The notes under the pieces: generated by a model
Database searches by the model: none
Told to the model about the DNA's origin: nothing
The model's input: the letters and a program-made list of their open reading frames with translations, nothing else
Position numbers and translations under genes: made by a program
Shown: positions 297 through 5,853 of the stretch, in pieces
How the letters are laid out: every line of letters begins with the position of its first letter
Position numbering within the stretch: the stretch's first letter is position 1
Virus record (IMG/VR): IMGVR_UViG_2711768062_000001
DNA length: 10,603 nucleotides
Origin: a virus
Taxonomy: Duplodnaviria; Heunggongvirae; Uroviricota; Caudoviricetes
Strand: one strand, 5' to 3'

Positions 297-438
297 TTTC
301 TCTACCTGCCGTTGGTGTTCGTGCCCGAGGCAGATAGCCTCAAGCACCCGCAGTCATTCTACTTAACTAAGATTTCCCCGCAAACCGTTTTTGTCCAGCA
401 CAGTAAATATCCAACTAAACCAATGGAGTTCGCTGTAT

Positions 439-618
439 TTACCGCCAGTATTCAATGCACATGACCGCCATGAACACCCCTAAAAAAAGGGCATTTATAT
501 ATCCAAATATTAATATCAAAACATCAACTTTTTCCATATACCTTGCTGTGAAGATGATGGGCATACATGATGCGAACAACCAGAACGCAACAAACAAAAA
601 CTGCAATGCGTTTTTCAT
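439..618 (-). CDS. small hydrophobic protein, 59 aa, two predicted transmembrane helices, unknown function
   Basis: MKNALQFLFVAFWLFASCMPIIFTARYMEKVDVLILIFGYINALFLGVFMAVMCIEYWR. Minus-strand GGAGG lies 7 nt upstream of the ATG at 618 (gattgtaGGAGGaataATG), so the internal ATG is preferred over the 72-aa start at 657 given in the ORF track. TAA stop at 441..439. Confidence 0.45.
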   Translation of the reverse strand: MKNALQFLFVAFWLFASCMPIIFTARYMEKVDVLILIFGYINALFLGVFMAVMCIEYWR

Positions 619-1052
619 TATTCCTCCTACAATCAATGTGCAATTACATTTAAACACACCTCAATTTGGCCGGACATATAAATATCTAAACCAGAAAAAA
701 TCACTTACATAGCGTTACAAACTCTTTAGTCTAAAGGTTCATCGTAAAACATTCCCCATACTTATCAGTCCGTTCCGCGCCAGGTAGCTCATTGCCTTAT
801 CTGGCAACCTGTAATCAGGTTTCCGCTTTTTCAGTTGGCTGGTCGTTTAACCGACATAGTTAACCCATTAATCTAGTTGCCGGATGTTGGTGGATTTTCG
901 CGTTTTAGTTGTTCATAAAAGTGCACAGCTTTAACCAATTCTTCTGATGTAACCGGGACTGGTGAGGCAGTGAATAAGGCCTGAATTTGATAGTTCGGCC
1001 TGTCGTTACAATCCTCTTTTTTCGGTACATATTTCCAGTCACCAGACCACTA

Positions 1053-1160
1053 CTTCCCCTGAAAGTCCGTAACGCCTTTTTTCACGTAGCGATATCGCCA
1101 TGTCACTGGTTTTGCTTGCCCCGCCGTTTCATGCCCTTCCTGATAATTAATCTCGCTCAT
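1053..1160 (-). CDS. micro-ORF, 35 aa hydrophilic (MSEINYQEGHETAGQAKPVTWRYRYVKKGVTDFQGK), hypothetical
   Basis: ATG at 1160..1158 preceded by a G-rich SD-like run (gaGTGGGGcgatgaATG); TAG stop at 1055..1053. Below the ORF-track size threshold; no homology recognised. Confidence 0.2.
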
Positions 1161-1397
1161 TCATCGCCCCACTCATCACAATATGCTTCGACCGGAGTTT
1201 TTCCCGCTTCATAGTCATCACGCTAGGATTCGACATCAGCAGCACTTCCACCGCGTAACTCACCATAGTCCATTAATAGTTCATCCCGCTCTTCAAAACT
1301 GATGTTATATTTAGCTGAACAAAAATCAGCCACTTTGTTCTTCCTCATCGTCTTTTATTTCGTGGTATGAGTAATTGCAGTAGTTAAAGAAAATTTC

Positions 1398-1508
1398 TTA
1401 TGCTCCGTCATGAATTTCATCAGGTGTTGCGTCATCGTCCACTTCGAATACATCCTCAAAATCTCCACCAGCTATTCCCGTTTCAATAATAATTTTGAAC
1501 TTTCGCAT
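1398..1508 (-). CDS. micro-ORF, 36 aa acidic (MRKFKIIIETGIAGGDFEDVFEVDDDATPDEIHDGA), hypothetical
   Basis: ATG at 1508..1506; on the minus strand an AGGAGG is followed by a GC hairpin (ccgccc-gaaa-gggcgg, plus-strand 1516-1531) and then the ATG, a geometry that could bring SD and start codon together. TAA stop at 1400..1398. Confidence 0.2.
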   Translation of the reverse strand: MRKFKIIIETGIAGGDFEDVFEVDDDATPDEIHDGA

Positions 1509-1770
1509 TTCACTACCGCCCTTTCGGGCGGCCTCCTGATGTTCTGAGGGTGCAGAAATCCATCCGGTTAAGGATTAAGTTTTATTTACAGAACTGAATT
1601 TAATTATTCAGATATACGTATCTGTAACCTTACGAATCTACTCACTGGATGCCTCTTTCATAAAAATAATCCAGTGGGTTTTATCGTTTTTTCCCTGTTC
1701 GTTGACAGATAACAGGCTTTCTATCTGTCAGTGCCAGAATCTGGCTTACCGGTATTTGCGTTTCATTCCA

Positions 1771-2127
1771 TTAAAAAATCAGAACGCCGTGCGGCCTCAA
1801 CACCCGAAAAGCTTCTTTAAATCTCTGTCGCAAATCATCACGCCAGGCATCTTTATTCAGCCGTCCATATTTCTTTCCCATCCAGGCGTTATCACCAACA
1901 CGCTCAAGATGCGGAGGGTCTAATACAACCATCGAAAAAGATGCGTCTGCAAATGATAATGCACGAAAATCTGCGATAATGTCAGGGCTGATAATCAAGC
2001 GTCTCCCATTGCGTAATGTGTATCCTTCTTTTCTGATATCGCTAAATATCGCCCGTTCGTCAGACTTATCGAACCAGAACATGCGGCTGCCACAGCACAT
2101 ATCAAGAATGGTTGCCGGTGCACTCAC
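1771..2127 (-). CDS. DNA methyltransferase-like protein, 118 aa, probably truncated by an in-frame TAA (see findings)
   Basis: Translation has an AdoMet-binding-like N-terminus (ILDMCCGSRMFWFD) and a (D/N/S)PP(Y/F/H)-type motif IV (VVLDPPHL) about 60 residues later, the order seen in amino-MTases. Start ATG overlaps the stop of the upstream 140-aa gene (ATGA at 2124-2127), implying translational coupling. Confidence 0.5.
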   Translation of the reverse strand: MSAPATILDMCCGSRMFWFDKSDERAIFSDIRKEGYTLRNGRRLIISPDIIADFRALSFADASFSMVVLDPPHLERVGDNAWMGKKYGRLNKDAWRDDLRQRFKEAFRVLRPHGVLIF

Positions 2128-5207: not shown

Positions 5208-5236
5208 TAAGCGAAACAGCACCGCAAGGAATCAGT

Positions 5237-5455
5237 ATGCAGAAACGAGAACCCGTTATCATCGCGCCAGACTATACCGATGATGAACTTTATGAGTGGA
5301 TGCACCAGAAAATTAATGCAGCGCAGGATCTGAAATGGGCTAATGAAGCCAGGGCTAAGCAGGCTGAAAATCTGTTCTCTCTGGAGCAGGATATCACCAA
5401 TCTGGAAAAAGCAGCGGCATTAAGCATTGCCAGAATGATTACATACCCGCGTTAA
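5237..5455 (+). CDS. ydfC: YdfC-like protein, 72 aa
   Basis: MQKREPVIIAPDYTDDELYEWMHQKINAAQDLKWANEARAKQAENLFSLEQDITNLEKAAALSIARMITYPR; SD-like aaggaa upstream. Same length and position as K-12 ydfC. Confidence 0.7.
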   Translation: MQKREPVIIAPDYTDDELYEWMHQKINAAQDLKWANEARAKQAENLFSLEQDITNLEKAAALSIARMITYPR

Positions 5456-5795: not shown

Positions 5796-5853
5796 TTTCT
5801 GGTGACGTTTGGCGGTATCAGTTTTACTCCGTGACTGCTCTGCCGCCCTTTTT
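5796..5853 (+). ncRNA. dicF: DicF small RNA (Hfq-dependent sRNA that represses ftsZ translation), processed from the dicB operon transcript
   Basis: tttctggtgacgtttggcggtatcagttttactccgtgactgctctgccgccctttttaa matches the DicF sequence as I remember it, including the GGCGG...CCGCC stem and U-tract. It lies between ydfC and dicB, after a 340-nt untranslated spacer. Confidence 0.75.
5811..5853 (+). terminator. intrinsic terminator forming the 3' end of DicF (leaky; dicB and ydfD lie downstream)
   Basis: GC stem (ggcgg ... ccgcc) followed by CTTTTT at 5848-5853. Confidence 0.5.

What the first reader, a model, noticed from the sequence alone, without database searches (positions are those of the whole stretch)
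439..660. Strongly initiated 59-aa two-helix membrane ORF in an AT-rich island next to the IS3
On the minus strand a consensus GGAGG lies 7 nt upstream of an ATG opening a 59-codon ORF that is almost entirely hydrophobic (two predicted transmembrane helices, with Cys and aromatic residues). It sits in a markedly AT-rich segment (about 300-1000) with no neighbouring gene in the same orientation for over 1 kb. Small membrane proteins with strong ribosome-binding sites in prophage accessory DNA are typically toxins of type I toxin-antitoxin pairs, holin-like or lysis proteins, or superinfection-exclusion factors. I do not recognise this sequence as Hok, Ldr, Ibs or another named family. The 85-aa plus-strand ORF in the track (455..712) is fully antisense to it and could instead mark an antisense RNA locus.
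Basis: inference. Interest (0 to 1): 0.5.

Follow-up and report, generated by a model that had tools for sequence, protein, structure and literature searches.

The report
Unannotated small membrane protein beside hok
The 59-codon hydrophobic reading frame is very probably a real, never-annotated small membrane-protein gene of E. coli prophages; it always sits just upstream of a hok/sok toxin-antitoxin module (here cut off by IS3), and what it does is unknown.

Summary
On the minus strand, AGGAGG (628-623), a 4-nt spacer and ATG (618) open a 59-codon ORF (stop 441-439) with two hydrophobic helices (GRAVY 1.27). It lies in the nin-like region of a Qin-type lambdoid prophage.

It is more than chance. 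Shuffles never reproduce its hydrophobicity or T-at-codon-position-2 periodicity. An exhaustive search found a second 59-aa paralog: 41% identity, no gaps, same start and stop. Nucleotide identity between the two is 58/71/47% at codon positions 1/2/3, and pN/pS is 0.47 (dN/dS about 0.2). The antisense 85-aa ORF is not conserved.

The two paralogs occur in 1570 and 1045 of 5426 complete E. coli genomes. RefSeq annotates neither, K-12 lacks both, and no Pfam, NCBIfam, PHROG, PADLOC or PDB entry matches.

Both paralogs lie immediately upstream of hok or a hok remnant. In this window IS3 cuts the hok mRNA leader at about +52, so only the hok promoter and leader stub remain (297-383).

The ORF itself shows no type I toxin features: no antisense promoter, terminator or RNA family, and no mRNA fold hiding the ribosome-binding site. 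It is also not placed or built like a holin. Best reading: a small N-in/C-in inner-membrane accessory protein, transcribed by read-through of the early-right operon. Its function is unknown.

The parts
439..618 (-). ORF59: a 59-codon CDS (ATG 618-616, TAA 441-439) for a small two-helix membrane protein. TM1 is about aa 4-24 and TM2 about aa 33-55.
   Evidence: Searches give sequence and hydropathy. One search gives the shuffle controls. One search found the paralog P0037/P0042 (41% identity, gapless). Searches give codon-position identity 58/71/47% and pN/pS 0.47. One search gives the AF2 model (helices 2-26 and 28-58, pLDDT 74).
623..628 (-). Shine-Dalgarno AGGAGG, 4 nt (AATA) before the ATG. 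It reads AGGGGG in 17 of 76 related copies, and the paralog has AGGGA at a comparable distance.
619..755 (-). AT-rich 5' region that is alignable between the two paralog loci (55% identity, 10 gap columns). It has no convincing sigma-70 promoter. It contains the palindrome CTTTAGACTAAAG (736-724), which shows a compensatory change in the paralog.
401..438 (-). Short 3' spacer between the ORF59 stop and the hok module. It is conserved between paralogs (61%) and has no terminator.
356..395 (-). Start of the hok/sok module: homology to 933W hokW begins at about 395. The predicted hok promoter has -35 TTGCGG at 383-378, a 16-nt spacer and -10 TAGAAT at 361-356.
   Evidence: alignment with the intact hok loci L005, L008, L025 and with 933W. 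The promoter assignment is by inspection and inferred.
297..349 (-). Remnant of the hok mRNA 5' leader, about the first 52 nt (GGGUGCUUGAGGCUAUCUGCCUCGGG...). The sok, mok and hok parts lie beyond the IS3 and outside the window.
   Evidence: Rfam sok model positions 1-58 match 291-349 minus, 19.7 bits, E 0.057, below gathering; relatives continue into an intact Hok. PF01848, E 3e-23, in phage 640R1.
1..296 (-). Left end of IS3 (terminal repeat at 296 plus the start of the orfA/InsE transposase), inserted in the hok leader.
   Evidence: HTH_Tnp_1, E 6.4e-10; a multi-copy element (median 4 places per genome), and 0 of 5426 complete genomes share this junction. The identification as IS3 proper is from my own knowledge of its sequence.
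739..1160 (-). Decayed same-strand nin-region gene directly upstream. The stop of the intact allele falls at 741-739.
   Evidence: IAI1 annotation 'frameshifted; internal stop', mapped with offset 5704; intact allele in L008; intact neighbours in phage vB_EcoS-640R1.

Best explanation
ORF59 (618-439, minus strand) is a genuine but unannotated protein-coding gene. It encodes a 59-aa inner-membrane protein made of two transmembrane helices joined by a short loop.

Its likely topology is N-in/C-in. There is K/R at the N-terminus and R59 at the C-terminus, and the loop is acidic in the paralog.

Conserved polar or small residues lie inside the helices: S17, C18, P20, T24, G39 and N42, plus the C-terminal E56-x-W58-R59. 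These suggest specific helix packing or self-association, or binding to another membrane protein. That step is inferred.

ORF59 belongs to a two-member family restricted to Escherichia/Shigella. [quoted passage not shown] The gene stays intact where hok has been destroyed, so it does not depend on hok.

In lambdoid (Qin-type) phages it sits in the nin-like region between the replication genes and Q, on the same strand. No promoter or terminator of its own is detectable. It is therefore most likely transcribed by read-through of the early-right (dicC-side) operon and translated efficiently from its AGGAGG site. That step is also inferred.

In this window IS3 has cut the adjacent hok mRNA leader, leaving only the hok promoter and about 52 nt of leader.

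Molecular role, with low certainty: a membrane-acting accessory protein that modulates an envelope function. It is neither the toxin of an antisense-controlled pair nor a holin.
For: Coding status:
- Gapless 59-aa paralog, 41% identity, E 1.2e-8 against 1.84 billion proteins.
- Reciprocal tblastn gives E 1e-10 to 1e-12.
- Identical start and stop positions, and 0 gaps in 180 nt, against 14 gap columns in about 175 nt of flank.
- Nucleotide identity is 58/71/47% at codon positions 1/2/3 (chi-square p 0.03). 14 of the 24 conserved residues use different codons.
- pS 0.72 and pN 0.34 in frame; the ratio is 0.64 and 1.14 in the two control frames.
- T at codon position 2 is 0.53 and 0.47 in the two paralogs, and shuffles never reach this.
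- Polymorphism density is about 3-fold lower in both ORFs than in their flanks: 2.8 vs 9-15 per 100 nt, and 1.1 vs 3.6-4.0.
- 249 of 250 full-length copies are intact.
- The T8 frameshift allele has 0 matches in IMG/VR, against 98 for T7.
- The antisense ORF is absent in the paralog.

Membrane hairpin: hydropathy and the AF2 model with helices 2-26 and 28-58.

Linkage to hok:
- Every related locus read continues into the hok promoter and leader.
- Among distinct contexts, 67 have an intact hok and 23 have an IS in the hok ATG.
- The remnant downstream of the paralog matches K-12 hokD at 80% over 66 nt, E 2e-11.

Context in a likely functional phage: cro-cII-O-DUF977-4 ORFs-[ORF59]-mok/hok-...-ydfU-rusA-Q, all on one strand.

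No promoter or terminator. No structured leader.
Against: - There is no direct evidence of transcription or translation.
- RefSeq/PGAP never calls the ORF in 1570 + 1045 genomes.
- Within-population changes are almost all nonsynonymous: 8 versus 1 in ORF59, and 4 versus 0 in the paralog. Recent constraint on the protein is therefore weak or unproven.
- Between the paralogs, the immediate non-coding flanks are about as similar (55-61%) as the ORF (59%). The coding signal rests on frame-specific patterns from only two lineages.
- The family is confined to one genus.
- No promoter was found, so expression in a lysogen is doubtful.
- Function is inferred from architecture alone.
Confidence: 0.62

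Rival explanations
1. ORF59 is the toxin of its own type I toxin-antitoxin pair, held in check by an antisense RNA transcribed across 439-712.
For: It is small, very hydrophobic, strongly initiated and sits in prophage DNA. Its size and two-helix build resemble the membrane toxins GhoT and OrtT (my own knowledge). An ORF-free antisense transcript cannot be excluded without RNA data.
Against: - No plus-strand promoter scores >=9/12, and the only 8/12 matches are poorly placed.
- No terminator bounds an antisense RNA, and no Rfam family covers the ORF.
- Antisense promoter-like sites in the paralog locus have no counterpart here (one search compared with the sequence).
- The leader does not sequester the SD, and the fold energy is no better than shuffles.
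- The gene is never disrupted while the neighbouring hok is repeatedly knocked out by IS elements. That argues against strong toxicity.
Confidence: 0.07
2. ORF59 is not a functional gene. It is an open frame on a T-rich strand with a fortuitous SD, kept only because the DNA is young or because the region has a non-coding role linked to hok.
For: ATG-ORFs of this length are common in such composition, appearing in 43% of shuffles. Population polymorphisms are nearly all nonsynonymous. The flanks are as conserved as the ORF between paralogs. PGAP does not call it.
Against: Frame, length, start and stop are all preserved through 41% nucleotide divergence with no indel. The codon-position pattern and pN/pS are frame-specific. 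The T2 periodicity and hydrophobicity were never reached by shuffles. An SD is present in both paralogs.
Confidence: 0.1
3. The protein is processed as a lipoprotein. TM1 would be a type II signal peptide (MKNALQFLFVAFWLFAS|C), leaving a 42-aa lipidated peptide anchored by the C-terminal helix.
For: By inspection, both subfamilies satisfy the PROSITE prokaryotic lipoprotein rule as I recall it: K/R within the first 7 residues, no charge for 6 residues, then L-F-A-S-C or I-V-I-S-C with Cys at position 18. S17 and C18 are invariant between the paralogs, and the A16V allele keeps the rule.
Against: Residues after the Cys are hydrophobic (MPIIF / VPIIL), so aa 4-24 reads as one continuous 21-residue helix. 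No SignalP or LipoP-type predictor was available. A lipobox-like match in a Cys-containing TM helix is not rare.
Confidence: 0.15
4. It is a holin-like or pinholin lysis protein, or a superinfection-exclusion membrane protein.
For: It has two TM helices with N-in/C-in topology, as class II holins do. It is phage-borne. Small membrane proteins of prophages often exclude other phages (my own knowledge).
Against: - It lies upstream of Q in the nin-like region, far from the lysis genes.
- It has no charged C-terminal tail and no dual start.
- It has no holin or PHROG family hit, and the fold searches were insignificant.
- No lysogenic promoter, which an exclusion gene would need.
- No PADLOC hit.
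Confidence: 0.1

Closest known systems
[quoted passage not shown]
   Same: ORF59 is physically and ancestrally adjacent to this module: both paralogs lie directly 5' of hok or a hok remnant, on the same strand. Both products are small hydrophobic inner-membrane peptides. Like the K-12 chromosomal hok loci (Pedersen and Gerdes 1999, my own knowledge), the hok copy here is disabled by an IS element close to the reading frame rather than in it.
   Different: ORF59 has no sequence relationship to Hok (no PF01848 hit). It has two helices rather than one helix plus a periplasmic Cys domain. It has no mok-like leader ORF, no Sok-like antisense RNA and no folded-back mRNA. Thousands of hok loci exist without it.
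GhoT / OrtT two-helix membrane toxins (57 aa; type V and orphan toxins of E. coli)
   Same: Nearly the same size and predicted two-TM hairpin build. They are also enterobacterial. This comparison rests on my own knowledge of those proteins.
   Different: No detectable sequence similarity to any Pfam family, which should include the GhoT/OrtT family. There is no adjacent GhoS-like antitoxin gene. Toxicity of ORF59 is untested.
Class II holins / pinholins (for example phage 21 S21-68)
   Same: Two TM helices, N-in/C-in, encoded by a lambdoid phage.
   Different: Wrong genomic position: the nin region upstream of Q rather than the lysis cassette. It lacks a basic C-terminal tail, a dual start and any family match.
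Small regulatory membrane proteins of E. coli found by small-protein surveys (AcrZ, MgtS, KdpF, CydX and similar)
   Same: Under 60 aa, hydrophobic, overlooked by annotation, and likely to act by binding larger membrane proteins. This is an inference by analogy from my own knowledge.
   Different: Those are mostly single-helix core-genome proteins with their own regulated promoters. ORF59 is prophage-borne, has two helices, is absent from K-12 and has no known partner.

Membership tests
Hok/Gef toxin family (PF01848) | Sequence match to the Hok/Gef profile: one N-terminal TM helix followed by a periplasmic segment with a conserved Cys. | tested here: not met
   hmmscan of ORF59 and 8 relatives found no PF01848 hit up to E 10. 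The true neighbour gene in phage 640R1 scores E 3e-23.
Type I toxin-antitoxin system (generic) | Small hydrophobic toxin peptide. | tested here: met
   59 aa, GRAVY 1.27, two hydrophobic helices.
Type I toxin-antitoxin system (generic) | Antisense or divergent small RNA gene with its own promoter and terminator overlapping the toxin mRNA. | tested here: not met
   No plus-strand promoter scores >=9/12. No Rfam hit over 439-720. Antisense promoter-like sites in the paralog locus are not conserved here. Only RNA-seq could fully exclude one.
Type I toxin-antitoxin system (generic) | Toxin mRNA structure that occludes the ribosome-binding site. | tested here: not met
   The MFE of the 150-nt leader plus start region is no better than shuffles (z +0.55 here, -0.38 in the paralog), and no conserved pairing of the SD was found. 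The true 5' end is unknown.
Class II holin / pinholin | Two TM domains. | tested here: met
Class II holin / pinholin | Position in the lysis cassette next to an endolysin downstream of Q, with a charged C-terminal tail. | tested here: not met
   The gene lies between the replication/nin genes and hok, upstream of ydfU-rusA-Q. The C-terminus is only E-Y-W-R. There are no holin Pfam or PHROG hits.
Bacterial lipoprotein (type II signal peptide) | N-terminal K/R, an uncharged hydrophobic stretch, then a lipobox ending in Cys at position 15-35. | tested here: inconclusive
   By inspection, both subfamilies fit the PROSITE-type rule (LFAS-C and IVIS-C, Cys18 invariant). The segment after the Cys remains hydrophobic, and no dedicated predictor was available.
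Bacterial lipoprotein (type II signal peptide) | Lgt/LspA processing (globomycin-sensitive cleavage, lipid labelling). | not testable with these tools
   This needs experiment.
New 'ORF59' small-membrane-protein family (this work) | 59 aa, with the motifs W13, S17-C18-x-P20-I-I-x-T24, F38-G39-[YH]-x-N42-A-L and a C-terminal E-x-W-R, lying 5' of hok. | tested here: met
   Alignments A2 and A3. Loci examined.

The most novel reading that the evidence does not exclude
The small membrane protein and hok/sok form a functional two-gene unit. The ORF59-family protein would act at the membrane on Hok, or on the same target. It could be a protein-level modulator or immunity factor, or a second effector released when early-right transcription reads through. 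That would add a protein component to a system thought to be controlled only by RNA. The ancestral adjacency of both diverged paralogs to hok is compatible with this. Persistence of the ORF where hok is destroyed argues against strict dependence.
Probability: 0.1. Interest if true: 0.65.

Novelty: new member of a known kind. Interest (0 to 1): 0.4.

Why it matters
If expressed, this family adds a conserved small membrane protein to the E. coli accessory proteome. One paralog is in about 29% and the other in about 19% of complete genomes, including Nissle 1917, ST131 and strain 83972. Automatic annotation and all family databases miss it, probably because K-12 lacks both copies.

Its fixed position next to hok/sok gives hok researchers a concrete, testable neighbour. 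It is also a further example of IS elements disabling chromosomal hok copies.

Practically, the finding corrects the local annotation. The phage records annotate the meaningless antisense ORF instead, in two of them under the product name 'hornerin'.

Tried and rejected
- Family libraries: Pfam, NCBIfam, PHROGs and PADLOC, using single sequences and all alignment members. Nothing was found except sub-threshold DUF4212 (E 0.03) in the paralog members.
- PDB sequence profile search: no hits.
- AF2 model followed by Foldseek against BFVD and PDB: only generic helical hairpins, with best E above 1.
- Search for a third subfamily: profile search of 5.8 billion proteins, degenerate-pattern scan of metagenome contigs, and tblastn of phage and plasmid collections. 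Only the same two subfamilies appeared.
- Promoter search at a relaxed threshold on both strands: nothing convincing.
- RNA structure of the leader: not significant.
- Population-level dN/dS: too few changes to be decisive, and partly biased by how the loci were retrieved.
- Frameshift alleles in the T7 run (481-487) at first suggested decay or phase variation. They occur only in Logan read-assemblies and are absent from IMG/VR (0 vs 98), so they are probably sequencing artefacts.
- Apparent upstream module boundaries in L068 and L073: L068 continues into what reads by eye as the 3' end of a transposase gene, so I take that break to be an IS insertion. The different upstream DNA of L073 was not identified. 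Neither was treated as a module boundary.
- Full-text search for the peptide sequences: no paper.
- The recent survey of Hok diversity does not mention a neighbouring small gene.

Full report
**1. What is in the sequence**

Read on the minus strand, window 628-616 is AGGAGGAATAATG. That is a perfect AGGAGG, a 4-nt spacer and an ATG. The ORF runs from 618 to the TAA at 441-439 and encodes 59 aa: MKNALQFLFVAFWLFASCMPIIFTARYMEKVDVLILIFGYINALFLGVFMAVMCIEYWR.

GRAVY is 1.27. There are two hydropathy peaks, at aa 7-25 and aa 33-52. AlphaFold2 gives two helices, 2-26 and 28-58, with mean pLDDT 74.

GC falls to 0.347 at 451-750. The antisense 85-aa ORF at 455-712 exists.

The neighbours on the same strand are decayed genes rather than absent ones. 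By homology to E. coli IAI1 they lie at about 739-1160, 1326-1508 and 1638-2082, followed by an intact DUF977 gene at 2124-2546.

**2. Where the window comes from**

The window is a Qin-type lambdoid prophage. It holds the dicC-side replication and nin-like genes on the minus strand. On the plus strand it holds dicA, ydfABC, DicF (Rfam 76.7 bits at 5797-5848), dicB and ydfD.

Positions 1-296 are the left end of an IS3-family element. Its OrfA matches HTH_Tnp_1 at E 6.4e-10, and the element is multi-copy in genomes. No complete E. coli genome in the collection shares this IS junction, so the insertion is rare or recent.

**3. More than chance**

An ATG-ORF of at least 59 codons is common in DNA of this composition, appearing in 43% of shuffles. 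The other features are not:
- an SD at the right distance: 0.4% of shuffles
- GRAVY >=1.27: 0 of 3000
- T at codon position 2 >=0.53: 0 of 1626 random ORFs
- GC3 minus GC12 >=0.20: 0.55%

The AT-richness of the ORF is carried by codon positions 1 and 2, while GC3 is 0.51.

**4. The decisive evidence is a paralog**

Word-indexed searches found only near-identical E. coli and Shigella copies. An exhaustive phmmer scan of 1.84 billion representatives then found a 59-aa protein, P0037/P0042, at 41% identity over residues 1-59 with no gap (E 1.2e-8). Its sequence is MRKILMYLCISIWIVISCVPIILTSEYLTEASIMALMFGHANALCIGVFISIIYIECWR. Reciprocal tblastn gives E 1e-10 to 1e-12.

The two genes compare as follows:
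- They share start and stop positions.
- Nucleotide identity is 58, 71 and 47% at codon positions 1, 2 and 3 (chi-square p 0.03; position 2 vs 3, p 0.014).
- 14 of the 24 conserved residues use different codons.
- Nei-Gojobori gives pS 0.72 (saturated) and pN 0.34. The ratio is 0.47, against 0.64 and 1.14 in the two shifted control frames.
- The 180-nt ORF aligns without a gap, whereas about 175 nt of flank needs 14 gap columns.
- The paralog has a stop 6 codons upstream of its ATG, so the 59-aa form is the conserved one, not the 72-aa GTG form.
- The antisense 85-aa ORF has no counterpart in the paralog.

In both lineages the ORF is about three times less polymorphic than its flanks. The figures are 2.8 vs 9-15 sites per 100 nt, and 1.1 vs 3.6-4.0.

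There are caveats:
- The few segregating changes are nearly all nonsynonymous (8:1 and 4:0).
- The immediate flanks are as similar between paralogs (55-61%) as the ORF (59%).
- Only two lineages exist.

Overall I put the probability that this is a real coding gene at about 0.85.

**5. Distribution and annotation**

The ORF59 DNA is in 1570 of 5426 complete E. coli genomes. The paralog is in 1045 of them, including Nissle 1917, 83972, ST131 and ATCC 11775. RefSeq annotates nothing at either place.

Three phage records carry ORF59. All three annotate the antisense ORF instead, two of them under the product name 'hornerin'.

K-12 MG1655 lacks both copies. That probably explains their absence from small-protein catalogues.

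There is no Pfam, NCBIfam, PHROG, PADLOC or PDB match. No third subfamily appeared in protein, metagenome, phage or plasmid searches.

**6.

Window 297-395 matches the region upstream of hokW/sokW of phage 933W. In relatives the sequence downstream of ORF59 continues into a complete hok/sok locus encoding MKQQKAMLIALIVICLTVIVTALVTRKDLCEVRIRTGQTEVAVFTAYEPEE. In phage vB_EcoS-640R1 this gene matches PF01848 at E 3e-23.

By alignment and inspection, the parts are:
- hok promoter: -35 TTGCGG at 383-378 and -10 TAGAAT at 361-356
- hok mRNA start: about 349
- IS3 insertion: at 296/297, about +52 of the leader

Rfam's sok model weakly matches 291-349 (E 0.057, below gathering).

Among distinct related contexts, 67 keep hok intact, 23 carry another IS exactly in the hok ATG, and none shares the IS3 insertion.

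The paralog sits in a prophage remnant between a ttcA-proximal integrase fragment and uspF. It is followed by a degraded 3' half of hok that matches K-12 hokD at 80% over 66 nt, E 2e-11.

The unit [small membrane gene - hok/sok] therefore predates the split of the paralogs. The small gene also outlives hok. Hok enrichment in prophages is documented in the Hok survey preprint (10.1101/2025.08.07.668861), which does not mention such a neighbour.

**7. How it most likely works**

In the probably functional phage 640R1 the gene order on one strand is cro(dicC)-cII-O-DUF977-four small ORFs-[ORF59]-mok/hok-...-ydfU-rusA-Q. ORF59 therefore lies in the delayed-early nin-like region.

No sigma-70-like promoter scores better than 8/12 upstream or antisense, and no terminator separates it from hok. 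The leader shows no significant structure. I infer transcription by read-through of the early-right operon, with efficient translation from AGGAGG. That motif reads AGGGGG in 17 of 76 copies, and the paralog has AGGGA.

Charge distribution suggests an N-in/C-in hairpin: K/R at the N-terminus, an acidic loop in the paralog, and R59.

The invariant residues are M1, L5, L8, W13, S17, C18, P20, I21, I22, T24, L36, F38, G39, N42, A43, L44, E56, W58 and R59. The polar or small ones inside the helices are the kind that mediate helix-helix contacts. By inference, the protein probably self-associates or binds another membrane protein.

Both subfamilies also fit a lipobox rule (LFAS-C and IVIS-C, with Cys18). 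A lipoprotein reading therefore remains possible. The hydrophobic continuation after the Cys argues against it.

**8. Rivals**

- Type I toxin with an antisense RNA: no promoter, terminator, RNA family or occluding fold, and the gene is never disrupted while hok is. Probability about 0.07.
- Chance ORF: contradicted by section 4. Probability about 0.1.
- Holin or superinfection exclusion: wrong position, no charged tail, no family match and no lysogenic promoter. Probability about 0.1.
- Functional partner of Hok: allowed by the ancestral adjacency but not required. Probability about 0.1.

**9. Verdict**

The specific mechanisms it offered are not supported, and the true type I toxin-antitoxin element is the IS3-truncated hok/sok next door.

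This is a new member of a familiar kind, the small hydrophobic prophage accessory proteins. Interest is moderate, raised somewhat by the conserved linkage to hok and by the breadth of unannotated occurrence.

Noticed in passing
window 297-395 (minus strand): Beheaded hok/sok locus. The hok promoter (-35 at 383-378, -10 at 361-356) and about 52 nt of the hok mRNA leader remain. IS3 (1-296) separates them from sok, mok and hok. No complete E. coli genome in the collection has this junction.
   Followed up: yes
L001 (IAI1) and 22 other distinct related contexts, about 260 nt downstream of the ORF59 stop: A different IS (annotated as ISEsa1-like in IAI1) is inserted exactly in the hok start codon (GGCTAT|TGTTAAC...). 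This is a second, independent way in which this hok copy has been disabled.
   Followed up: partly
window 724-736: Palindrome CTTTAGACTAAAG (minus-strand reading), immediately after the stop (741-739) of the decayed upstream gene. The paralog locus has CTTCAGTCTGAAG, which is a compensatory double change. It could be a small hairpin or a protein-binding site.
   Followed up: no
window 806-831 (plus strand): Terminator-like hairpin AACCTGTAATCAGGTT followed by a T-run. It lies inside the decayed upstream gene and is absent from the intact allele (L008), so it is probably incidental.
   Followed up: partly
window 481-487: T7 run inside the ORF (minus strand). T8 frameshift protein variants (55 aa) are seen only in Logan read-assemblies. 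IMG/VR has 98 T7 copies and 0 T8 copies, so these are probably sequencing artefacts rather than phase variation.
   Followed up: yes
ORF59 codons 37, 40, 57 (window 508-506, 499-497, 448-446): Three of the eight nonsynonymous polymorphisms (I37M, Y40H, Y57C) change the residue to the one found in the paralog. This could be ancestral polymorphism, parallel change or gene conversion.
   Followed up: no
window 5797-5848 (plus strand): DicF small RNA (Rfam RF00039, 76.7 bits), within the dicA-ydfABC-dicF-dicB-ydfD arm of the Qin-type prophage.
   Followed up: no
window about 739-2082 (minus strand): A run of pseudogenised nin-region genes: a hypothetical gene, a DUF7167 gene and a SAM-dependent methyltransferase. 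The small ORF just downstream of them remains intact.
   Followed up: partly
L088 3984-6260 (E. coli chromosome between ttcA and uspF): The paralog sits in a prophage or island remnant at the Rac attachment region, together with an integrase fragment, a hok 3' remnant (about 5235-5300) and sitD (ABC-3) fragments. In some strains sitABCD lies alongside.
   Followed up: partly
Phage records ON470612.1 and ON470619.1 (L087 4166-4417): The antisense ORF over ORF59 is annotated as 'hornerin', an obvious mis-annotation of a low-complexity antisense frame.
   Followed up: yes
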